DNA from: Octopus sinensis
Taxonomy: Eukaryota
Direction of reading: 5' to 3'
Assembly (NCBI RefSeq): GCF_006345805.1
Contig: NC_042997.1
Span: forward strand, 18,166,001 to 18,230,000
DNA length: 64,000 bases
Both the position numbers and the translations under genes were made by a program. The notes below the pieces were generated by a model that worked only from the letters and a program-made list of their open reading frames with translations, was not told the origin of the DNA and ran no database searches. Shown piece by piece: positions 47,455-62,089 of the stretch; the first letter of the stretch is position 1, and each line of letters opens with the position of its first letter.

Positions 47455-47576
47455 ATCTTTTACTTGTTTCAGTCATTTATTTAACTGCGGCCATGCTGGG
47501 GCCTGCAGGGTCTAACGAATCGACCCTGTACTTGCCTTCAAAAGCCTGTACCTGTTCTATCGTTCTCTTTTTGCCG

Positions 47577-47633
<57 letters not shown>

Positions 47634-47812
47634 ATATACACGCGACGGGTTTTTTTCAGTTTCCGTCTACCAAATCTACTCTCAAGGTATTGGCCGGCCC
47701 GAGGCTAAAGAAGAAACACTTGCCTAAAGTTTTCTGCCGTAGGATTGAGCCTGTTGAGCCTTCAACCGTGTGATTAGGAAGGAAACGTTTTACCATACAG
47801 CCACGCTTGCGT
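47455..47812 (-). mobile_element. SINE family 1 (diverged, with TA expansion)
   Basis: Reverse complement similar to both ends of family 1. Confidence 0.7.
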
Positions 47813-49180: not shown

Positions 49181-51033
49181 TGGCCCATCCCAGTTCATCT
49201 AGAAATTGTAACATGCACGCTAGTGAACAATCTCTGCCAAGGCTTCCATAAGAAACAGGAATGACAGAACCAGGTATAATAATATTTAAAAAAAACAAGT
49301 CTAATCAGAATATTATAAGCCACAAGCTGGCAGAGATACTGGGAAAATATGTAAAACCCTCAGCGTGTAATAAGATCCACATATGCAGCACCGTCCATGC
49401 TTACATCCATATGTACATATGCACATGCACACACGCACACACGCACGCACACACACACACAAACACACAGAAGAAGTGATAAATGCACACAGCTAGACAA
49501 ATTTGCGTACACACAAATCTACCCTGTTTGATGTTGTTTAAATTCCAACGACATCGTTGTTCTTGGTTAAAAACCGACTGTTTGTTAGTGAGAAATTCGA
49601 AAAATAAAGCATGCACATCCATCCGTACATCGATACCTACAAACATACGAACATGCATGCATGCATACATACATGCAGAATTTGACGGTGTTTATACGTG
49701 AAAAGTTCAATAGAAAATATGGAAAGGTATAAGGACGTGTTTGATAAGGTGGGCTGGTGGGTAAACCAACCTTTATATTGTCGCAGTATTTGGAATGTCG
49801 TCTTTGAAATGGAAAGGATTGTCATTGTATGGCTGCTTAAGAATTCCTAAAATTGTATATAAAATATAATTGTATATAGAGATTCTACAAAAGGTATGTA
49901 GTTAGGGTTGTTTTGACTCCTGGAAATTGATGAATATTATTAATTGAGCTGCTGGTCAGGAAAAGGTGAAACGAATTGCAAGCTGTGATTGTGAAAGGAG
50001 TGCCAGCATATGTTTGTGTGCTTTTGTGTATGTGTGTGTGTCTATATGTATGTGCATGTGTGTGTGTGTATGTGGATAGATAGCTGGATGTGTGGAGGGA
50101 TAGTTTTGCGTTTGTATAGTGTGTGTGCGTGTATGCATTCTGGTGAGAACTTCCGTAGAATAAATAGGCTAACCTTCTAAAATAAATTGTATATACATTC
50201 CAAAGCTAGTAGATTGTCATGTATGCCTTAATACACGAGATACAACAAAAGGAATATAACAATGAAGCACTCACAAAAACAAGACACTAAAATAGATAAC
50301 TTAGGAGTCTACATTTTCGGAAAAACAGCTAAAACTAAAAATATATCAATAAAAATAGGAACTCAAAATTTAAAGAATATAAAAAAGAATAATTGTAAAA
50401 TACATATGAAAATATAAACAAAACTCAGCATACTTCAGTATATAGGTGTGTGAGTTTGTGTGTGTATGTATTGAGAATCCTAGTATCCTCCATACGGGTC
50501 ACAAGTTCCATCGAGTGCCACTTTTAGATAGACTTAACTCTTGGCCTATTTGCGTATTGCAGACCATTTGTTTGCAGACGTGGTATCGCTAAAAAATGCT
50601 AATTATAGAGCGTATCTAGCGTAACTATTAGCTTATCTACTTCCTGATGGGTTGATGATAAAGTGCATTGGTCTTGCCAGCATACAACACACGTAATAAT
50701 ACTACTGCTCAGTACAATTAGCATTTTGTTAACAGTATTCTGCATCGTTGTCTCGACGGTCGTTTACTGAACTCACTACGTAATCTTCGGAAACCTTCCT
50801 AAATTCGACGATCGTGACAAGTGACTCACTTTTCGATAGTCTCTTCTTGAATTGAATGCATTGTGAAAATCATGTTTTTTTTCTAGACGTAAAATCTACT
50901 CTGGCTTTCAAAAAGAATTTACTAGAGCACTTTTGTAGTTCATATTGTCTAAATCTACCTTTCCAGTTTTTACCACGCCTTCTTTCAGTTTAATAACGTA
51001 TATGTATGTATATACGTGCGAGTGTGTGTGTGT

Positions 51034-51082
<49 letters not shown>

Positions 51083-52445
51083 CATAGAAACACACATATG
51101 CGAATATCTATTCAAGTTTTAGAAGTAAATCCTAGTACATGCAACCTAGCTCAGAGCGCAAAGACACTTTCAGGTGATACAGGTTCAGATTAATAATACG
51201 GACTACTGCATTCTATCAAATATTCAAAGTGTAGCAGGTTTTCTACAGACGCATCTACAGAGAATTGTAGATTCGATTCTCACTGAATGTTCACTTTTAA
51301 TTTCGTTTCCTATGTGTCTTTTAGGCCTACATTCACATTTTAAAATATAGAACTAAATATAAATTAAAAGGACGCTAGCCAGTCACAGGATATATCTTCA
51401 GACGTCTTAGCCTTTCTCTTTTCAGTTAGTAACGGTGAAGCATAATGAGTACTTGATACTTAAAACGTATTATCAGAATTTCCTAGTTGAATAGTTAGCT
51501 GAAAGAAATGCGTCTACCTGAGGAAAGTGTTGCCCGAATTATATTTTCCAAATAATACATCCGATACTGGTATGATAATGGAAAACTGGATATAATTAAA
51601 CTTCTGCTTTTTATTCGTTTTCTTTTGACTTTCGAAACTGTTTTGTCTCAAAAATGTGATAAGAAATTTGGATTTGTATTTGATTGGCAAGTAATTTAAT
51701 ATCAGATAGTGAGTTAAAACTGAAATAACTGCGTCGCGGCAGAGCCATGATATCCATTTAAATTACACATACAGTGTTACATCGAATTTCGTTTTCATTT
51801 GCAATGACACGTTATTCCAAAATGATATTAAATTGAGTATAATCGTAAATACGTACTTGATAGTTATCTAACTCAATCACCGCATGAGTTTAAATCTTAA
51901 CCCATCAGTAAAGAAAAAGGAAGAAATAATTTTGAAAGGAACTTGTTTTTAATACATTTTAAAACGTAAAATGTTTTAGTATCTGATTTTTTATATCTTT
52001 GGATAAACCTGATGTAAATCTTTTCCTATCATGGAGATGTTTTCGTATATCTTTTCATATCGTGTTTAATGTTTAGTTGGATCGGGGGGTGAATTCAATA
52101 CTGATTTCCAGCATGCATACAAGTCCTCTAGTTAGAATTTAGATTGGGTAGTGGGCAATATAGAGAAATAAGGTCAGCAGGTGACAACAACTGTGAAAAA
52201 TGATTGAGATGAGTAGAAAAGACGGTGCTGGATTTCCACGGGGCATATGTTAACTAAATAAATTGTGGACACAAATTGGCAGGGAAAAATTAACTAAAGT
52301 AAAACAAAATAGAACAAGCAAACATTAATAATGAGATAACGATAAAATATTAATGAATCAATTACTCGTACTTAAAATAATGACAGTTATGAAACAGAAA
52401 TTATAATAAGATTAAAAATAAAAGTAACAACAACAATGAAAAACA

Positions 52446-54108: not shown

Positions 54109-54137
<29 letters not shown>

Positions 54138-54139
<2 letters not shown>

Positions 54140-54686
54140 AGGGCTTAGTAAAATAAATTACTTTGCCACATACTGAACTCATTAGAAATAGCAGCTAAAG
54201 AAATTTCTTCAGCTATTTCTAATACTTAAAGAAGATCTCTCTCAGATAGTGTTTGCCTAAACCAACTCACAAAAGTATGGGGGAAAAAACATTAAAAATC
54301 AAGTGCAAAGGTTATTTGAGAACGTACGTTTCTAGATTAGTCAATTCGACATTCTTTCTTCAGCTCAGAATTCCTTGAATCGGATTTGGGAACACTGAAA
54401 GTCGGGAGCATACCCTTTCGGCTTCTAATCACCTCTAGAATTCTGCTCGAACTAAAAGTGCTATCAAATTCGAATTTGAATTCGCCTATAATGGTCCCTT
54501 TACATACTGAATACTTGGTGAAATTGATTAATAATTAATTAATTTTACCCTCAATTGTTGAAATTATAATTCATCTCTCTCTGCTAAATGCTGCGGTTTT
54601 CACCGTTAATACATGGTGTTTCTCAAGTTTAACCCACGCTGGTGGAAAGGGGAGAGCAGAAATTCTTCGCTTGCATATTCGAATTT
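54138..54686. mobile_element. Diverged homologous monomer (type B) of the hammerhead array, with one half inverted
   Basis: 54138-54239 is an imperfect reverse complement of the array terminus; 54480-54686 matches the monomer middle in sense orientation; halves meet at palindrome caaattcgaatttg (54465-54478). Confidence 0.75.
54311..54373 (-). ncRNA. Antisense minimal type I hammerhead ribozyme
   Basis: Minus strand: gaattctgag-CTGAAGA-aagaatgtcgaattgactaatcta-GAAAC-gtac-GTT-ctcaaataac; stem I tgag/ctca. Confidence 0.7.
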
Positions 54687-55093
54687 GAGATCTCCCTTTT
54701 TAGTAGGAGAAATAGCTATAACCCTTTGACTGCTATTTCTAAATTCGGTATGTGGTAAGGCAACTCGTTGCTAAACCCTTATTGCTTAGTATTACTTAAA
54801 TTTTCCTCAAATGAGGCTTTTACATGCCGAAGACTACTTGGTGTAATTGATAATTTTTCCAAATTAATTAATTTCACCCTTCATTATTACGGATAACCAT
54901 ATTTTATCTCAGTAGATGACCACAGCATCTTGTTTTGGCTACACGCGGGTGGGAAGGGGCTGTTGACACAATCGTTTCATTCACAAATTGAATTCGGTGT
55001 GATACCAGTTGCGGATTCTAGCTCGCTCTGATACTGAGTTGAGTTGGTGCCTTCTGGTATCTCAAAATTCATATATAATCATTTATGATTATA

Positions 55094-55211
55094 GTATTCT
55101 ACGCTGAGAGAAAAGAAGTTTCGGTAAGATAGAATTATTTAATATTTAATATTTAATTCTTATGCTTTCCTTAAAACTTGATTTCGAAACGTACGTACGT
55201 CCGTGGATAAC
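55094..55211 (+). ncRNA. Type I hammerhead, copy 1 (core CTGA-GA, duplicated gtac)
   Basis: tctacg-CTGAGA...GAAAC-gtacgtac-GTC-cgtgga; cleavage predicted after 55201. Confidence 0.6.
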
Positions 55212-55694
55212 TAAAAAATGTATGATAGATTGCAGTCAATTCATTCTCTCTTACCTGTTTGTGTCTGCCTTCCAAATGCTGTTTTTACTGAGATCTCCCT
55301 TTTTAGTAGGAGAAATAGCTATAACCCTTTGACTGCTATTTCTAAATTCGGTATGTGGTAAGGCAACTCGTTGCTAAACCTTATTGCTTAGTATTACTTA
55401 AATTTTCCTCAAATGAGGCTTTTACATGCCGAAGACTACTTGGTGTAATTGATAATTTTTCCAAATTAATTAATTTCACCCTTCATTATTACGGATAACC
55501 ATATTTTATCACAGTAGATGACCACAGCATCTTGTTTTGGCTACACGCGGGTGGGAAGGGGCTGTTGACACAATCGTTTCATTCACAAATTGAATTCGGT
55601 GATACCAGTTGCGGATTCTAGCTCGCTCTGATACTGAGTTGAGTTGGTGCCTTCTGGTATCTCAAAATTCAATATATAATCATTTATGATTATA

Positions 55695-55808
55695 GTATTC
55701 TACGCTGAAGAGAAAAGAAGTTTCGGTAAGATAGAATTATTTAATATTAATATTTAATTCTTATGCTTTCCTTAAAACTTGATTTCGAAACGTACGTCCG
55801 TGGATAAC
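55695..55808 (+). ncRNA. Minimal type I hammerhead, copy 2
   Basis: CTGAAGA 55705, GAAAC 55787, gtac, GTC 55796-55798; stem I tctacg/cgtgga; stem II gaaa/tttc, aagttt/aaactt, gaatta/taattc. Confidence 0.85.
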
Positions 55809-56292
55809 TAAAAAATGTATGATAGATTGCAGTCAATTCATTCTCTCTTACCTGTTTGTGTCTGCCTTCCAAATGCTGTTTTTACTGAGATCTCCCTTTT
55901 TAGTAGGAGAATAGCTATAACCCTTTGACTGCTATTTCTAAATTCGGTATGTGGTAAGGCAACTCGTTGCTAAACCCTTATTGCTTAGTATTACTTAAAT
56001 TTTCCTCAAATGAGGCTTTTACATGCCGAAGACTACTTGGTGTAATTGATAATTTTTCCAAATTAATTAATTTCACCCTTCATTATTACGGATAACCATA
56101 TTTTATCTCAGTAGATGACCACAGCATCTTGTTTTGGCTACACGCGGGTGGGAAGGGGCTGTTGACACAATCGTTTCATTCACAAATTGAATTCGGTGTG
56201 ATACCAGTTGCGGATTCTAGCTCGCTCTGATACTGAGTTGAGTGGTGCCTTCTGGTATCTCAAAATTCAATATATAATCATTTATGATTATA

Positions 56293-56407
56293 GTATTCTA
56301 CGCTGAAGAGAAAAGAAGTTTCGGTAAGATAGAATTATTTAATATTTAATATTTAATTCTTATGCTTTCCTTAAAACTTGATTTCGAAACGTACGTCCGT
56401 GGATAAC
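56293..56407 (+). ncRNA. Minimal type I hammerhead, copy 3
   Basis: CTGAAGA 56303; GTC 56395-56397. Confidence 0.85.
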
Positions 56408-56891
56408 TAAAAAAATGTATGATAGATTGCAGTCAATCATTCTCTCTTACCTGTTTGTGTCTGCCTTCCAAATGCTGTTTTTACTGAGATCTCCCTTTTT
56501 AGTAGGAGAAATAGCTATAACCCTTTGACTGCTATTTCTAAATTCGGTATGTGGTAAGGCAACTCGTTGCTAAACCCTTATTGCTTAGTATTACTTAAAT
56601 TTTCCTCAAATGAGGCTTTTACATGCCGAAGACTACTTGGTGTAATTGATAATTTTTCCAAATTAATTAATTTCACCCTTCATTATTACGGATAACCATA
56701 TTTTATCTCAGTAGATGACCACAGCATCTTGTTTTGGCTACACGCGGGTGGGAAGGGGCTGTTGACACAATCGTTTCATTCACAAATTGAATTCGGTGAT
56801 ACCAGTTGCGGATTCTAGCTCGCTCTGATACTGAGTTGAGTTGGTGCCTTCTGGTATCTCAAAATTCAATATATAATCATTTATGATTATA

Positions 56892-57006
56892 GTATTCTAC
56901 GCTGAAGAGAAAAGAAGTTTCGGTAAGATAGAATTATTTAATATTTAATATTTAATTCTTATGCTTTCCTTAAAACTTGATTTCGAAACGTACGTCCGTG
57001 GATAAC
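56892..57006 (+). ncRNA. Minimal type I hammerhead, copy 4
   Basis: CTGAAGA 56902; GTC 56994-56996. Confidence 0.85.
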
Positions 57007-57490
57007 TAAAAAAATGTATGATAGATTGCAGTCAATTCATTCTCTCTTACCTGTTTGTGTCTGCCTTCCAAATGCTGTTTTTACTGAGATCTCCTTTTTA
57101 GTAGGAGAAATAGCTATAACCCTTTGACTGCTATTTCTAAATTCGGTATGTGGTAAGGCAACTCGTTGCTAAACCCTTATTGCTTAGTATTACTTAAATT
57201 TTCCTCAAATGAGGCTTTTACATGCCGAAGACTACTTGGTGTAATTGATAATTTTTCCAAATTAATTAATTTCACCCTTCATTATTACGGATAACCATAT
57301 TTTATCTCAGTAGATGACCACAGCATCTTGTTTTGGCTACACGCGGGTGGGAAGGGGCTGTTGACACAATCGTTTCATTCACAAATTGAATTCGGTGATA
57401 CCAGTTGCGGATTCTAGCTCGCTCTGATACTGAGTTGAGTTGGTGCCTTCTGGTATCTCAAAATTCAATATATAATCATTTATGATTATA

Positions 57491-57603
57491 GTATTCTACG
57501 CTGAGAGAAAAGAAGTTTCGGTAAGATAGAATTATTTAATATTTAATATTTAATTCTTATGCTTTCTTAAAACTTGATTTCGAAACGTACGTCCGTGGAT
57601 AAC
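57491..57603 (+). ncRNA. Type I hammerhead, copy 5 (1-nt core deletion)
   Basis: CTGAGA 57501; GTC 57591-57593. Confidence 0.6.
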
Positions 57604-58087
57604 TAAAAAAATGTATGATAGATTGCAGTCAATTCATTCTCTCTTACCTGTTGTGTCTGCCTTCCAAATGCTGTTTTTACTGAGATCTCCCTTTTTAGTA
57701 GGAGAAATAGCTATAACCCTTTGACTGCTATTTCTAAATTCGGTATGTGGTAAGGCAACTCGTTGCTAAACCCTTATTGCTTAGTATTACTTAAATTTTC
57801 CTCAAATGAGGCTTTTACATGCCGAAGACTACTTGGTGTAATTGATAATTTTTCCAAATTAATTAATTTCACCCTTCATTATTACGGATAACCATATTTT
57901 ATCTCAGTAGATGACCACAGCATCTTGTTTTGGCTACACGCGGGTGGGAAGGGGCTGTTGACACAATCGTTTCATTCACAAATTGAATTCGGTGATACCA
58001 GTTGCGGATTCTAGCTCGCTCTGATACTGAGTTGAGTTGGTGCCTTCTGGTATCTCAAAATTCAATATATAATCATTTATGATTATA

Positions 58088-58200
58088 GTATTCTACGCTG
58101 AGAGAAAAGAAGTTTCGGTAAGATAGAATTATTTAATATTTAATATTAATTCTTATGCTTTCCTTAAAACTTGATTTCGAAACGTACGTCCGTGGATAAC
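58088..58200 (+). ncRNA. Type I hammerhead, copy 6 (1-nt core deletion)
   Basis: CTGAGA 58098; GTC 58188-58190. Confidence 0.6.
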
Positions 58201-58684
58201 TAAAAAAATGTATGATAGATTGCAGTCAATTCATTCTCTCTTACCTGTTTGTGTCTGCCTTCCAAATGCTGTTTTTACTGAGATCTCCCTTTTTAGTAGG
58301 AGAAATAGCTATAACCCTTTGACTGCTATTTCTAAATTCGGTATGTGGTAAGGCAACTCGTTGCTAAACCCTTATTGCTTAGTATTACTTAAATTTTCCT
58401 CAAATGAGGCTTTTACATGCCGAAGACTACTTGGTGTAATTGATAATTTTTCCAAATTAATTAATTTCACCCTTCATTATTACGGATAACCATATTTTAT
58501 CTCAGTAGATGACCACAGCATCTTGTTTTGGCTACACGCGGGTGGAAAGGGCTGTTGACACAATCGTTTCATTCACAAATTGAATTCGGTGATACCAGTT
58601 GCGGATTCTAGCTCGCTCTGATACTGAGTTGAGTTGGTGCCTTCTGGTATCTCAAAATTCAATATATAATCATTTATGATTATA

Positions 58685-58798
58685 GTATTCTACGCTGAAG
58701 AGAAAAGAAGTTTCGGTAAGATAGAATTATTTAATATTTAATATTTAATTCTTATGCTTTCTTAAAACTTGATTTCGAAACGTACGTCCGTGGATAAC
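58685..58798 (+). ncRNA. Minimal type I hammerhead, copy 7
   Basis: CTGAAGA 58695; GTC 58786-58788. Confidence 0.85.
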
Positions 58799-59282
58799 TA
58801 AAAAAATGTATGATAGATTGCAGTCAATTCATTCTCTCTTACCTGTTTGTGTCTGCCTTCCAAATGCTGTTTTTACTGAGATCTCCCTTTTTAGTAGGAG
58901 AAATAGCTATAACCTTTGACTGCTATTTCTAAATTCGGTATGTGGTAAGGCAACTCGTTGCTAAACCCTTATTGCTTAGTATTACTTAAATTTTCCTCAA
59001 ATGAGGCTTTTACATGCCGAAGACTACTTGGTGTAATTGATAATTTTTCCAAATTAATTAATTTCACCCTTCATTATTACGGATAACCATATTTTATCTC
59101 AGTAGATGACCACAGCATCTTGTTTTGGCTACACGCGGGTGGGAAGGGGCTGTTGACACAATCGTTTCATTCACAAATTGAATTCGGTGATACCAGTTGC
59201 GGATTCTAGCTCGCTCTGATACTGAGTTGAGTTGGTGCCTTCTGGTATCTCAAAATTCAATATATAATCATTTATGATTATA

Positions 59283-59396
59283 GTATTCTACGCTGAAGAG
59301 AAAAGAAGTTTCGGTAAGATAGAATTATTTAATATTAATATTTAATTCTTATGCTTTCCTTAAAACTTGATTTCGAAACGTACGTCCGTGGATAAC
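59283..59396 (+). ncRNA. Minimal type I hammerhead, copy 8
   Basis: CTGAAGA 59293; GTC 59384-59386. Confidence 0.85.
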
Positions 59397-59879
59397 TAAA
59401 AAATGTATGATAGATTGCAGTCAATTCATTCTCTCTTACCTGTTTGTGTCTGCCTTCCAAATGCTGTTTTTACTGAGATCTCCCTTTTTAGTAGGAGAAA
59501 TAGCTATAACCCTTTGACTGCTATTTCTAAATTCGGTATGTGGTAAGGCAACTCGTTGCTAAACCCTTATTGCTTAGTATTACTTAAATTTTCCTCAAAT
59601 GAGGCTTTTACATGCCGAAGACTACTTGGTGTAATTGATAATTTTTCCAAATTAATTAATTTCACCCTTCATTATTACGGATAACCATATTTTATCTCAG
59701 TAGATGACCACAGCATCTTGTTTTGGCTACACGCGGGTGGGAAGGGGCTGTTGACACAATCGTTTCATTCACAAATTGAATTCGGTGATACCAGTTGCGG
59801 ATTCTAGCTCGCTCTGATACTGAGTTGAGTTGGTGCCTTCTGGTATCTCAAAATTCAATATATATCATTTATGATTATA

Positions 59880-59994
59880 GTATTCTACGCTGAAGAGAAA
59901 AGAAGTTTCGGTAAGATAGAATTATTTAATATTTAATATTTAATTCTTATGCTTTCCTTAAAACTTGATTTCGAAACGTACGTCCGTGGATAAC
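59880..59994 (+). ncRNA. Minimal type I hammerhead, copy 9
   Basis: CTGAAGA 59890; GTC 59982-59984. Confidence 0.85.
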
Positions 59995-62089
59995 TAAAAA
60001 AATGTATGATAGATTGCAGTCAATTCATTCTCTCTTACCTGTTGTGTCTGCCTTCCAAATGCTGTTTTTACTGAGATCTCCCTTTTTAGTAGGAGAAATA
60101 GCTATAACCCTTTGACTGCTATTTCTAAATTCGGTATGTGTAAGGCAACTCGTTGCTAAACCCTTATTGCTTAGTATATATATATATATATATATATACA
60201 GACATATATATATACATATATACATGGGCAAATAAAAAGAAAACAGGAGTCAGTTGGTCGTACACAGTGACTATATTAGATTGATGCTCTGTGAAAGTTT
60301 TAGATGGAAAAATAGGAGTGACGTTTCAATTTTGGAGGATTCCACTGAACAATTGTTGAAACTAATTTGCTTGAGACCAGTTCTTTTAGTATTTCTACAA
60401 CTTTATCCAGGTTACCAAGTGTCACTAGTAAGTGTTAAGTGTATAACGGTGGATGTATTCCATTTCAGTTGAAACACAGTAGAAATAATATTTAAGTTCT
60501 GAAAATAACTTTCTCTAAAATATTGGAAATTGTTGTTATAAGATTACCACCTATCTATTTTGTTTTGTTGTTCAGGTGGTATTTATCGTAATAGTAATGT
60601 CTGCCAAAAATAATATTCAAATAAGAATGTGTCTCAGGTTAGTCTAGGAATTCATTGATGCGAGATAGTACATTGTCACGGTTAAGGTTATTTGAATATG
60701 TTTTCAAACTAACATCCTCAACCCATGTAACATGACATGATTTATCCATTGATACTTGTACTGTTTGTATATATGAGTTGGTTCCTATGACTCTCCATCA
60801 CAACCCCAATCACAGTTTCATATATTAAACAGTTTCTCAGCTATTCATACTTATTGACTTCAAAATTGCTTGCTTAACACTAATCATTTTAGTTGATTGC
60901 AGATAGCTATACCATAACAATTTTTTTTTCTATTTTTATGGTAATCAGTTTCACTTTATTGAAAAATCTGAAAAGTAGACCAACATTATATTGATAAGCT
61001 GTTTTCAGATGAAGTTTTATTGAATGAGTAAGGAACTTAATACAATACAATGCAGTCTCAATAAATCTGCTCTGCAAATACCAAAGAATAAGGAAATAAT
61101 GAGATAGAAAAGATTGAAAAAATAAACAAGAATTTATTAACCAATCATGTCACAAACACAATAATGTTGAATTTCAGTGGAAAGGTTGCCAACTTTATAT
61201 TTTGCCATTTTTAACGTTTTTTCTATTTTTCATTTTATTTACTTTTTGTTAGGGTGGGAATCTTAATACTTTTGCAGTATTTGGGAATTAAGAAAGAAAG
61301 AGAGAGAGAAAGAAAGAAAGAACGAAATAAATAAATAAATAAATAAATAAATAAAACAACAAAGAAAATTATTTGGTTGAAAATTTCATCAAATTTTATT
61401 CCTGTTCTCTGGAAGAATTATTAGACGTAGATAATAATAATAAAAAAAAAGTGGTTGAAATACATTCACAACAAAATCTAATAACTTATCATTCTTTGTA
61501 TATCTAAAAAAAAATAACTTATTTAATTTTTATGCTATTTTGTCTTTCCTTTCGTGTATTTAATTGTATTTCCCTTCTTAGCTGTAAGAAATTAGAGTAT
61601 CCTCAGCCTTTTGATATTTTTTATGCTGAGAAAACATCTTGCATTGCAATTAAAGATTTTGGATAAAACTAACTGAAAACGAAATAAAATAAAAATGTAT
61701 TCCACGTTATGTCCAGTATGGTGAATATTTTGACAGTGTTATATTTATTGTAAATCGCTGAAAAATGGGAAGAATAATGTCATGAGTTATCGTGAATGAT
61801 ATTAAGTAAAAACGAAATCCTTGTGAGGAAAGTTTGCAACATGTTTCAAGAATTGTTTAGCACTTATTTTATATTTACACTGGGACGAAAAATATCACTT
61901 GCAGTTCGTTTTCATAATAAAAATTTCTTTCGTTTAGGCACAAGACAACAGCGTTTGAACTCGTAAGCAAAGTAATAACACCAAAACAGCAATACATTTT
62001 GTACAGTTCTTTAATTTCTCCGGCTGTGACCTTATATTATAATTAGAATTATGACACAGAAATGATAATGTATGCATGGGTTTTCTTTA

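What the first reader, a model, noticed from the sequence alone, without database searches (positions are those of the whole stretch)
54311..54373. Antisense hammerhead with compensatory stem I changes, giving ribozymes on both strands of the locus
Seen: the minus strand reads gaattctgag-CTGAAGA-(24 nt)-GAAAC-gtac-GTT-ctcaaataac, versus array gtattctacg-CTGAAGA-(75 nt)-GAAAC-gtac-GTC-cgtggataac. The core and GTAC loop are identical, while stem I changes acg/cgt to gag/ctc with pairing kept and stem II length differs. This covariation is the best in-window evidence that the fold is selected. Inference: the shared GTAC palindrome could allow A/B heterodimeric cleavage. The GUU triplet and an A-A mismatch at the base of stem II may reduce activity.
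Basis: partly seen in the sequence, partly recalled or inferred. Interest (0 to 1): 0.72.

Follow-up and report, generated by a model that had tools for sequence, protein, structure and literature searches.

The report
Inverted arm of hammerhead retrozyme insertion
The minus-strand hammerhead motif is real, but it sits in one truncated, flipped copy of a 557-base non-coding repeat that occurs thousands of times in this animal-type genome. It was likely left there by the way Penelope-type retrotransposon enzymes paste such ribozyme repeats head-to-head into TA microsatellites, so it is an ordinary member of a known class and not a purpose-built antisense ribozyme.

Summary
**Observation: confirmed.** The minus strand 54373->54311 reads exactly as described.

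**What it is.**
- It is not a locus-specific antisense ribozyme. It lies in a 5'-truncated, inverted copy of a genome-wide 557-bp tandem-repeat family, "B".
- B is collinear with, and distantly related to, the neighbouring 599-bp array "A".

**Why it is antisense.**
- Both families insert into (TA)n with fixed 3' ends and variable 5' ends.
- About half of the insertions are two head-to-head arms: 16 of 33 loci and 20 of 52 clusters. The order is always minus-then-plus.
- This matches the published Penelope-like-element (PLE) insertion footprint (PMC8557442).
- Hammerhead motifs on both strands are therefore a routine by-product.

**How good the hammerhead evidence is.**
- GUU and a mismatched 10.1/11.1 pair are norms of the B-like superfamily, which gave 2987 pattern hits against 0 in the control.
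- Stem I is invariant within B-likes: 0 of 18 pairs covary.
- Support for stem I comes only from comparison across families.
- Cleavage activity and expression are untested.

**Window-specific features.** The insertion is an A/B chimera, and its two B pieces add up to one B unit plus 12 nt.

**Verdict.** This is a new member of a known kind, the animal non-LTR retrozymes. This scan has already noted the same kind of element on other DNA, including two other pieces of this genome.

The parts
54109..54139 (.). (TA)n microsatellite next to the 3' end of the minus-strand arm
   Evidence: Tandem Repeats Finder. Sequence.
54122..54475 (-). Left arm: a 5'-truncated copy of the 557-bp repeat family B. 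Read on the minus strand it runs B402-557 then B1-199. Its true 3' end is about B192, fused to (TA)n.
   Evidence: 98-99% identical to the canonical B monomer. 99-100% identical to copies on many contigs. End sequence.
54311..54373 (-). Type I hammerhead motif of the B copy. Stem I 5' strand 54364-54373; CUGAAGA 54357-54363; stem II 54333-54356 (A.A at 54356/54333, AGA/UCU, GUC/GAC, loop GAAUU); GAAA 54329-54332; helix III A-U and C-G pairs with a GUAC loop, 54322-54329; predicted cleavage after U 54321 (GUU|C); stem I 3' strand 54311-54320.
   Evidence: Read directly. The structure is compatible with 92.8% of cells in 14 B-like sequences. No Rfam hammerhead hit at E<=10.
54464..54479 (.). Perfect 16-nt palindrome TCAAATTCGAATTTGA, holding the head-to-head junction between the left arm (B402) and the right arm (about B200)
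54475..54688 (+). Start of the right arm: family B segment B200-413, in plus orientation
   Evidence: 99% identical to the canonical B monomer.
54686..54688 (+). B413|A88 junction, with TGA shared by both families (3-nt microhomology)
   Evidence: Among the 45 matches, only the window's own site spans this junction.
54686..60177 (+). Family A array: A88-599, then 8 full 597-599-bp units, then A1-194. It carries 9 hammerhead motifs (GUC site, G-C at 10.1/11.1, 75-76-nt stem II).
   Evidence: Rfam Hammerhead_1 scores 17.7 bits, E 0.057, below the gathering score of 34.
60175..60222 (.). (TA)n microsatellite next to the 3' end of the plus-strand arm

Best explanation
The minus-strand motif at 54311-54373 is a complete hammerhead-type sequence motif inside a 5'-truncated, inverted copy of a genome-wide 557-bp tandem-repeat family (B), a relative of the neighbouring 599-bp array (A). 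Its antisense orientation is likely a by-product of Penelope-like, target-primed reverse transcription into a (TA)n microsatellite, which builds two head-to-head arms.

Shown:
- A and B are non-coding, AT-rich, dispersed tandem repeats.
- Their 3' ends sit at two fixed TA-like sites next to (TA)n, and their 5' ends vary.
- In about half of the insertions a minus-strand arm lies to the left of a plus-strand arm, so the 5' ends meet in the middle.

Inferred:
- Multimeric or circular A and B RNAs, predicted to be processed by their hammerheads, are copied by the reverse transcriptase/GIY-YIG endonuclease of autonomous Penelope-like elements (PLEs).
- Both DNA ends of a cut (TA)n would prime on UA-rich sites of the RNA, and the two cDNAs would then be joined head to head.
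- At this locus the right arm would have started on A RNA (A194), run about 9.2 units, and switched at a TGA microhomology to B RNA (B413), stopping at about B200.
- The left arm would have started at about B192 of B RNA and stopped at B402.

Predicted function of the motif:
- The B hammerhead has a 2-bp helix III with a palindromic GUAC loop. It is predicted to cleave, if at all, as a dimer within multimeric B transcripts.
- This solitary, truncated copy is most likely an inert passenger.
For: B is a family, not a one-off.
- The 351-nt query gave 46 matches at up to 99-100% identity, from 40 scored of 1759 first-look candidates, with 557-bp spacing on several contigs.
- B-like hammerheads with N7 other than A gave 2987 pattern hits against 0 in the control.

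Homology with A.
- The canonical B monomer is collinear with A.
- A88-297 is 64-66% identical. The rest is 31-38% identical, apart from the hammerhead core and helix III, which are identical.

Architecture of the window.
- maps (TA)n | B(-) 402-557,1-199 | B(+) 200-413 | A(+) 88...194 | (TA)n.

Generality of the architecture.
- In 33 surveyed loci, 38 of 43 internal 3' ends have (TA)>=5 within 20 nt. The ends cluster at B199-200 (8), B285-296 (12), A194-200 (14) and A290-309 (8).
- 5' ends are variable.
- 16 of 33 loci are head-to-head.
- By my count of the first 100 rows, 20 of 52 clusters switch from minus to plus and 0 switch from plus to minus.

Published PLE footprint.
- PMC8557442 (passages seen) describes 5' truncation, partial tandems, an inverted 5'-truncated copy at the 5' end, and a microsatellite bias that includes (TA)n.

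PLEs in this genome.
- GIY-YIG gave 5029 first-look candidates; 147 of 150 scored passed the cut-off, with open frames up to 883 aa.
- One 780-aa frame carries RVT_1 plus a C-terminal GIY-YIG domain.
- Two copies of that PLE end ...ACAAATAT(AT)n.

Non-coding nature.
- The longest ATG ORF is 34-37 aa in trimers, and GC is 34-35%.

Dimer prediction.
- The monomeric hammerhead fold of B scores -3.0 to -4.7 kcal/mol against an MFE of -7.7. The homodimer gains -10.0, through the ACGUACGU palindrome.

Precedent.
- Axolotl HHR_Amex2 has a U.U mismatch at the base of helix II, and short-helix-III motifs cleave far better as dimers (PMC7229834, passages seen).
Against: - No RNA evidence. No listed run is on record as RNA, and only contigs could be laid.
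- Rfam's Hammerhead_1 model does not detect the B motif at E<=10. The A motif is below the gathering score.
- The B motif lacks the G10.1-C11.1 pair, has GUU, and its hammerhead fold is not the predicted MFE.
- In B the 10-nt palindrome AACGUACGUU could pair U17 with A14 of a partner, which would compete with the active core. This is my inference.
- No sequence is shared between A/B and the 20 GIY-YIG loci examined. The only blastn hits were a neighbouring B insertion in L172, so no autonomous partner is identified.
- The two window-specific junctions (54475 and 54687) were not bridged by any listed contig of the eight runs laid. They rest on the assembly alone.
- In 9 of 10 head-to-head loci where both ends are visible, one arm ends at each of the two fixed sites. 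In the window both arms end at the first site, so this locus departs from the common pattern.
Confidence: 0.72

Rival explanations
1. One reading: a locus-specific antisense ribozyme. The minus-strand hammerhead would be kept here by selection so that both strands of the locus are self-cleaving, possibly acting with type A RNA as an A/B heterodimer through the shared GUAC palindrome.
For: The core and helix III are identical in A and B, and two stem I pairs are compensated. ACGUACGU is self-complementary, and a heterodimer is predicted to form with a gain of -6.4 kcal/mol.
Against: - The copy is 98-100% identical to many other B copies. Its only private change is a 1-nt deletion in stem II, so nothing is locus-specific.
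- The inverted arrangement recurs at 16 of 33 and 20 of 52 loci.
- The arm holds a single hammerhead, so it cannot release a unit.
- Homodimers are predicted to be more stable than the heterodimer.
- 0 of 33 other loci combine A and B.
Confidence: 0.04
2. The B-type motif is a catalytically dead relic. B would spread by PLE-type copying or by array expansion without any self-cleavage, and the motif would persist only because the family is young.
For: - No Rfam hit.
- A.A or U.U at 10.1/11.1 in 13 of 14 B-like variants.
- GUU is the norm.
- The hammerhead fold is weaker than the MFE.
- 0 of 18 pairs covary within B-likes.
- PMC8557442 notes that PLE clades without canonical hammerheads proliferate well.
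Against: - The core positions CUGA-GA, GAAA and helix III are invariant across six subfamilies that differ by 3-18% over the monomer. They are also identical between A and B, whose flanks are only 31-38% identical.
- The changes that do occur fall at N7, the loop, N17 and wobble-compatible stem positions.
- Axolotl motifs with a U.U mismatch cleave as dimers (PMC7229834).
Confidence: 0.25
3. The inversion is a later DNA rearrangement or an assembly artefact. A plain insertion B402...B413|A88... would have had its first 357 bp flipped in place, or the assembler would have misjoined repeats.
For: The inverted piece and the direct piece are contiguous in a canonical B array (about B192/199 next to B200), as an in-place inversion would leave them. 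No listed contig from other runs bridges the junctions.
Against: - The flipped piece ends exactly at the family's canonical 3' terminus next to (TA)n, as in L029, L002 and L024.
- Head-to-head pairs with outward (TA)n-bound 3' ends recur genome-wide at different junction positions, and never in the opposite order.
- A 3-nt microhomology at B|A is too short to cause an overlap-based misassembly (inference).
Confidence: 0.08

Closest known systems
Animal non-LTR retrozymes (Cervera & de la Pena 2020, PMC7229834; Li, Clavereau & Pollet 2026 preprint, 10.64898/2026.07.22.740005)
   Same: - Non-coding, AT-rich tandem repeats, each with a type I hammerhead.
- Dispersed through the genome as dimers up to long multimers.
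- Two coexisting related families with different unit sizes (axolotl 330/350 nt; here 557/599 bp).
- Proposed dependence on Penelope-like elements.
   Different: - Units are longer than the reported 170-400 nt.
- The B type has A.A or U.U at 10.1/11.1 and GUU as its norm.
- Expression, circular RNA and cleavage are untested here.
- The (TA)n, two-site, head-to-head footprint is not mentioned in the passages of these two papers that I searched: 'inverted' and 'microsatellite' have 0 occurrences in PMC7229834, and the preprint has no relevant use of either word.
Penelope-like element insertions (Craig et al. 2021, PMC8557442)
   Same: - 5' truncation and partial tandems.
- An inverted 5'-truncated copy directly at the 5' end.
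- Insertion bias for microsatellites, including (TA)n.
- Hammerheads with a minimal helix III.
   Different: - A and B encode no RT or endonuclease, so they would be non-autonomous.
- No sequence is shared with the 20 PLE copies examined.
- Arrays reach 9 or more units, rather than a partial tandem of a 3-4-kb element.
Amphibian satellite hammerheads, including axolotl HHR_Amex1 and HHR_Amex2 (PMC7229834)
   Same: - Very short helix III capped by a palindromic tetraloop.
- Weak activity as a single motif and efficient cleavage as a dimer.
- HHR_Amex2 has a mismatch (U.U) at the base of helix II.
   Different: - Here the mismatch is A.A (B0, B1), U.U (B2-B4) or G.U (B5).
- The cleavage triplet is mostly GUU.
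- No activity has been measured.
Twin priming of LINE-1 insertions
   Same: One insertion is made of an inverted 5' part and a direct 3' part. The inverted part starts, at the flank, next to where the direct part begins (about B192/199 and B200), and there is microhomology at the join.
   Different: - The enzyme family is different (PLE rather than LINE).
- The templates are multimeric or circular.
- The two arms here began on two different repeat families.

Membership tests
Hammerhead ribozyme, type I (Rfam RF00163) | Conserved core CUGANGA ... GAAA ... NUH | tested here: met
   The copy has CUGAAGA, GAAA and GUU (H = U), read. These positions are invariant in 14 B-like variants, apart from N7 and N17.
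Hammerhead ribozyme, type I (Rfam RF00163) | Three helices around the core, with helix I open and helices II and III closed | tested here: met
   Stem I has 4 proximal and 4 distal pairs, stem II has 3+3 pairs, and helix III has 2 pairs plus a GUAC loop. 92.8% of cells are paired, against 31-55% when partners are slid. The monomer fold is weak: -3.0 to -4.7 kcal/mol against an MFE of -7.7.
Hammerhead ribozyme, type I (Rfam RF00163) | G10.1-C11.1 pair at the base of helix II (near-universal, by recalled knowledge) | tested here: not met
   The window copy has A.A. 13 of 14 B-like variants are unpaired at this position, and one has G.U.
Hammerhead ribozyme, type I (Rfam RF00163) | Score at or above Rfam's gathering threshold (34 bits) | tested here: not met
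   There is no hammerhead match at E<=10 in a 111-nt scan or in the whole window. The A type scores 17.7 bits.
Hammerhead ribozyme, type I (Rfam RF00163) | Site-specific self-cleavage | not testable with these tools
   This needs in vitro transcription, or RNA ends from raw reads. No RNA run is on record.
Animal non-LTR retrozymes | Head-to-tail repeats, each unit carrying a type I hammerhead, dispersed in the genome | tested here: met
   B arrays with 557-bp spacing on several contigs. A arrays with 599-bp spacing.
Animal non-LTR retrozymes | Non-coding, low GC, and no LTR, PBS or PPT | tested here: met
   The longest ATG ORF is 34-37 aa and GC is 34-35%. No terminal LTRs were seen in the maps. 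PBS and PPT were not searched for.
Animal non-LTR retrozymes | Unit size about 170-400 nt | tested here: not met
   The units are 557 and 599 bp.
Animal non-LTR retrozymes | Expressed as unit-length linear and circular RNA | not testable with these tools
   No listed holder is on record as RNA, and contigs cannot show RNA ends.
PLE-type insertion footprint | Fixed 3' end with variable 5' truncation | tested here: met
   42 of 43 3' ends fall in four narrow clusters. 5' ends are scattered.
PLE-type insertion footprint | Inverted 5'-truncated copy directly at the 5' end | tested here: met
   The window shows it, as do 16 of 33 loci and 20 of 52 clusters, with none in the opposite order.
PLE-type insertion footprint | Microsatellite target | tested here: met
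   38 of 43 3' ends have (TA)>=5 within 20 nt. The window is flanked by (TA)n on both sides.
PLE-type insertion footprint | RT plus GIY-YIG ORF in the element, or a demonstrated autonomous partner | tested here: inconclusive
   A and B have no ORF. PLEs with open 780-883-aa frames exist in the genome and end in (TA)n. No sequence is shared with A or B in the 20 copies examined.

The most novel reading that the evidence does not exclude
The locus is a fossil of a single retrotransposition event that used two RNA templates. The right-hand reverse transcription began on an A RNA and went about nine times round an A circle or multimer. It then jumped through a 3-nt microhomology onto the very B circle that the left-hand reverse transcription was already copying. 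The two B pieces (B413->about B200 and about B192->B402) together cover one 557-nt B unit, with a 12-nt overlap and a 7-nt primer-sized gap. This is what two polymerases running into each other's start on one circular RNA would leave. If so, it is direct genomic evidence for circular-RNA templates and for two retrozyme families sharing one PLE ribonucleoprotein.
Probability: 0.3. Interest if true: 0.6.

Novelty: new member of a known kind. Interest (0 to 1): 0.35.

Why it matters
- It removes a tempting over-reading. Hammerheads on both strands of a locus need no selection for an antisense ribozyme, because the insertion mechanism produces them routinely.
- Two abundant, young, related retrozyme-like families (557 and 599 bp) share a conserved 3' module (A88-297) and a hammerhead island. 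This makes them a good natural system for asking which parts a Penelope-type enzyme needs in cis.
- The B-like superfamily has thousands of copies with A.A or U.U at 10.1/11.1 and GUU. That is a natural test of how much deviation a dimer-dependent hammerhead tolerates.
- The A/B chimera is a rare record of template switching between families.

Tried and rejected
- **RNA evidence.** The look-up of sequencing runs listed 22 runs, but no holder is on record as RNA. Laying 8 runs gave only short contigs of repeat depth, which cannot show RNA ends, strand or level. No listed contig bridges the 54475 or 54687 junction, so neither is verified or refuted. The variants seen in those contigs, read on the minus strand, are N7 A->C, loop A->U and one distal stem I A->G.
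- **Rfam.** No gathering-level hit in the window. The mir-297, mir-1277 and similar hits at E<=10 are microsatellites.
- **Palindromes as joining hot spots.** Rejected. 5 of 17 B and 5 of 24 A 5' ends lie within 3 nt of a 6-nt palindrome, against background fractions of 0.29 and 0.19.
- **Within-family covariation.** 0 of 18 pairs change on both sides. The family is too uniform for this to be informative.
- **Shared module between A/B and PLE copies.** None was found in 20 loci. The hairpin words GAAATAGC/GCTATTTC occur in only 2 of 20 loci.
- **ORFs next to GUAC-loop hammerheads**. Only microsatellite translations and a few unrelated-looking frames turned up; none was scanned further.
- **Other copies of the B413|A88 junction.** None among the 45 matches (40 scored of 554 candidates).
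- **Literature.** One search found no paper on these particular repeats.

Full report
**1. Observation**

On the plus strand, a 599-bp unit is repeated from 54686 to 60177. Each unit carries tattctacg CTGAAGA (75-76 nt) GAAAC gtac GTC cgtggataac. Of the nine copies, six have an intact CTGAAGA, three read CTGAGA, and the first also has a GTAC duplication.

The 12-mer GAAACGTACGTY (up to 1 mismatch) occurs 10 times in the window. The mean in 100 shuffles is 0.22, and no shuffle reached 10.

Read as a type I hammerhead, the minus-strand copy has these features:
- the full core: CUGAAGA, GAAA and GUU;
- a 2-bp helix III with a GUAC loop;
- a 3+3-bp stem II that starts with an A.A mismatch;
- a stem I of four proximal pairs, a C.A mismatch, one more pair and four distal pairs.

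Compared with the array's motif, two stem I pairs are compensated on both sides (C-G to A-U and A-U to G-C). One changes on one side (U.G to U-A). One is broken (C-G to C.A).

**2. Rfam**

No family reaches its gathering score in the window. In short scans the array motif matches Hammerhead_1 at 17.7 bits, E 0.057, against a gathering score of 34. The minus-strand motif gives no hammerhead match at E<=10.

The genome itself (2.72 Gb, 13516 contigs) holds canonical type I hammerheads. Of 74 scored candidates, 65 matched at E<=10 and 8 passed the cut-off. Many of these also use GUU.

**3. The minus-strand copy belongs to a family of its own**

- The 351 nt around the motif match many places at up to 99-100% identity: 46 matches, from 40 scored of 1759 first-look candidates. 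On several contigs they are spaced 557 bp apart.
- A canonical unit, "B" (557 bp, taken from L029), is collinear with the array unit, "A" (599 bp).
- A88-297 is 64-66% identical between the two. The rest is 31-38% identical, except for the hammerhead core and helix III, which are identical.
- Both units are non-coding (longest ATG ORF 34-37 aa in trimers) and have 34-35% GC.
- A is also genome-wide: 251 matches, from 39 scored of 851 first-look candidates.

**4. Architecture of the locus**

| Window position | Content |
|---|---|
| 54109-54139 | (TA)n |
| 54475 -> 54122 | B on the minus strand: B402-557, then B1 to about B192/199 |
| 54475-54688 | B on the plus strand: B200-413 |
| 54686-60177 | A on the plus strand: A88 through 8 full units to A194 |
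| 60175-60222 | (TA)n |

- The two arms meet head to head inside a perfect 16-nt palindrome (54464-54479).
- B413 joins A88 through a shared TGA.
- In canonical B arrays the two B pieces have the same orientation. The antisense position of the hammerhead is therefore an inversion of part of a B unit, not a separate invention.

**5. The architecture is general**

In 33 other loci:
- 38 of 43 internal 3' ends have (TA)>=5 within 20 nt.
- The ends cluster at B199-200 (8), B285-296 (12), A194-200 (14) and A290-309 (8), with one outlier.
- 5' ends are scattered.
- 16 of 33 loci have a minus-strand arm to the left of a plus-strand arm.
- In 9 of 10 such loci where both ends are visible, one arm ends at each of the two sites.
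- None of the 33 loci combines A and B.

I grouped the first 100 listed rows of the 2987 B-like pattern hits into 52 clusters. Twenty switch from minus to plus and none switches from plus to minus.

Among the matches, only the window itself spans the B413|A88 junction.

**6. Comparison with known mechanisms**

- *PLE insertions.* Craig et al. 2021 (PMC8557442; passages read) describe PLE insertions as highly 5'-truncated and as partial tandems. They often have an inverted 5'-truncated copy directly at the 5' end, and they show a strong bias for microsatellites, including (TA)n.
- *Animal retrozymes.* Cervera and de la Pena 2020 (PMC7229834; passages read) describe animal non-LTR retrozymes. 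[quoted passage not shown] In the axolotl there are two coexisting families. One has a U.U mismatch at the base of helix II, and both cleave far better as dimers.
- *Derivation from PLEs.* A 2026 preprint (10.64898/2026.07.22.740005; abstract and passages) argues that such retrozymes derive from PLEs.
- *PLEs in this genome.* GIY-YIG gave 5029 first-look candidates. Of 150 scored, 147 passed the cut-off, with open frames up to 883 aa. [quoted passage not shown] Two copies of that element end ...ACAAATAT followed by (AT)n.
- *(TA)n near PLE copies.* A (TA)>=6 run lies in the downstream flank of 17 of 20 GIY-YIG loci and in the upstream flank of 10 of 20 (my count). This is only a weak contrast.
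- *No identified partner.* No sequence is shared between A/B and these 20 PLE copies, so the partner element is not identified.

**7. Most likely mechanism (inferred)**

- The two DNA ends of a cut (TA)n prime reverse transcription on UA-rich sites of multimeric or circular A or B RNA, and the two cDNAs are joined head to head.
- At this locus the right arm starts at A194, runs about 9.2 units, switches at a TGA microhomology to B413, and ends at about B200.
- The left arm starts at about B192 and ends at B402.
- The direct B piece therefore begins within about 8 nt of where the inverted piece was primed. The two B pieces cover one 557-nt unit with a 12-nt overlap.
- That pattern fits twin priming on one B template, possibly a circle.
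- It could also be chance or an in-place inversion, and other loci show no such regularity.

**8. Is the B hammerhead selected and active?**

Within the B-like superfamily stem I never varies. In 14 variants, 0 of 18 pairs change on both sides and 4 pairs change on one side to wobble pairs. The 10.1/11.1 position is unpaired in 13 of 14 variants: A.A with N7 = A or C, U.U with N7 = U, and one G.U. GUU dominates.

Support for the fold therefore comes from elsewhere:
- Core positions are invariant across subfamilies that differ by 3-18%, and between A and B.
- Across 24 distinct stem I classes of GUAC-loop hammerheads, 2.79 of 4 proximal pairs are formed, against 1.86 +/- 0.17 for shuffled partners. 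No shuffle out of 10000 reached the observed value, and seven different fully paired triplets occur. This test is not corrected for relatedness.

Energetically, the monomeric hammerhead fold of B (-3.0 to -4.7 kcal/mol) loses to another fold (-7.7). Dimers gain -10.0 (B/B), -12.4 (A/A) and -6.4 (A/B).

I predict dimer-dependent, possibly weak, cleavage for B in multimeric transcripts, and no role for this solitary copy. Nothing here measures activity or expression.

**9. Verdict**

The locus is one more instance of a hammerhead retrozyme inserted PLE-style, and so a new member of a known kind. This scan has noted the same kind of element before, on other genomes and on two other pieces of this genome. 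I tested the earlier notes' "two fixed end sites, one arm each" rule on my own loci: it held in 9 of 10, and the window is an exception.

The features worth keeping are:
- the A/B chimera;
- the one-unit-plus-12-nt coverage of B;
- the conserved A88-297 module;
- the family-wide non-canonical 10.1/11.1 position.

Noticed in passing
window 55095-55211, 57492-57603, 58089-58200: Three of the nine A-array hammerhead motifs read CTGAGA instead of CTGAAGA, a 1-nt loss in the core. The first also has GTACGTAC in place of GTAC in helix III. These may be real mutations or homopolymer errors of the assembly.
   Followed up: partly
window 54686-54688: The B413|A88 junction has a TGA microhomology. The only copy found is in the window, among the 45 matches, and 0 of 33 other loci combine A and B. 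It looks like a template switch between two repeat families.
   Followed up: partly
monomer positions A88-297 (e.g. window 56485-56694) and B85-293: This is the only long block conserved between A and B (64-66% identical, against 31-38% elsewhere). It contains both alternative 3' termini and an inverted repeat, GAAATAGC...GCTATTTC. It is a candidate cis signal for the reverse transcriptase.
   Followed up: partly
G000 places listed (e.g. L102, L110, L118): Other families of GUAC-loop hammerhead motifs have 55-90-nt stem II inserts and mostly U.U or G.U at 10.1/11.1. The pattern gave 617 hits against 8 in the control.
   Followed up: partly
L031-L060: A separate, canonical hammerhead family has the form GUAC CUGAAGAG ACCC...GGGUC GAAAC AUGU GUY GUAC, followed by aataaa. 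Eight of 74 scored candidates pass Rfam's cut-off, and many have GUU.
   Followed up: no
L177 1253-3592 (G000:C6:82396500-82401000): [quoted passage not shown] About 700 nt downstream the element ends in (TA)n. Its 3' region has only a degenerate hammerhead-like stretch (...GAACCGAAACATGT...).
   Followed up: partly
L165 977-1034 (+) and the reverse strand: Near a GIY-YIG copy, a hammerhead-like motif with a GAUC palindromic loop (GAAAC GATC GTA) occurs once on each strand.
   Followed up: no
window 49394-49464, 51040-51110, 47572-47648 and others: The sub-threshold Rfam 'miRNA' matches (mir-297, mir-1277, mir-3149) all lie on (GT)n, (TA)n or (CA)n microsatellites and are artefacts of low complexity.
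   Followed up: yes
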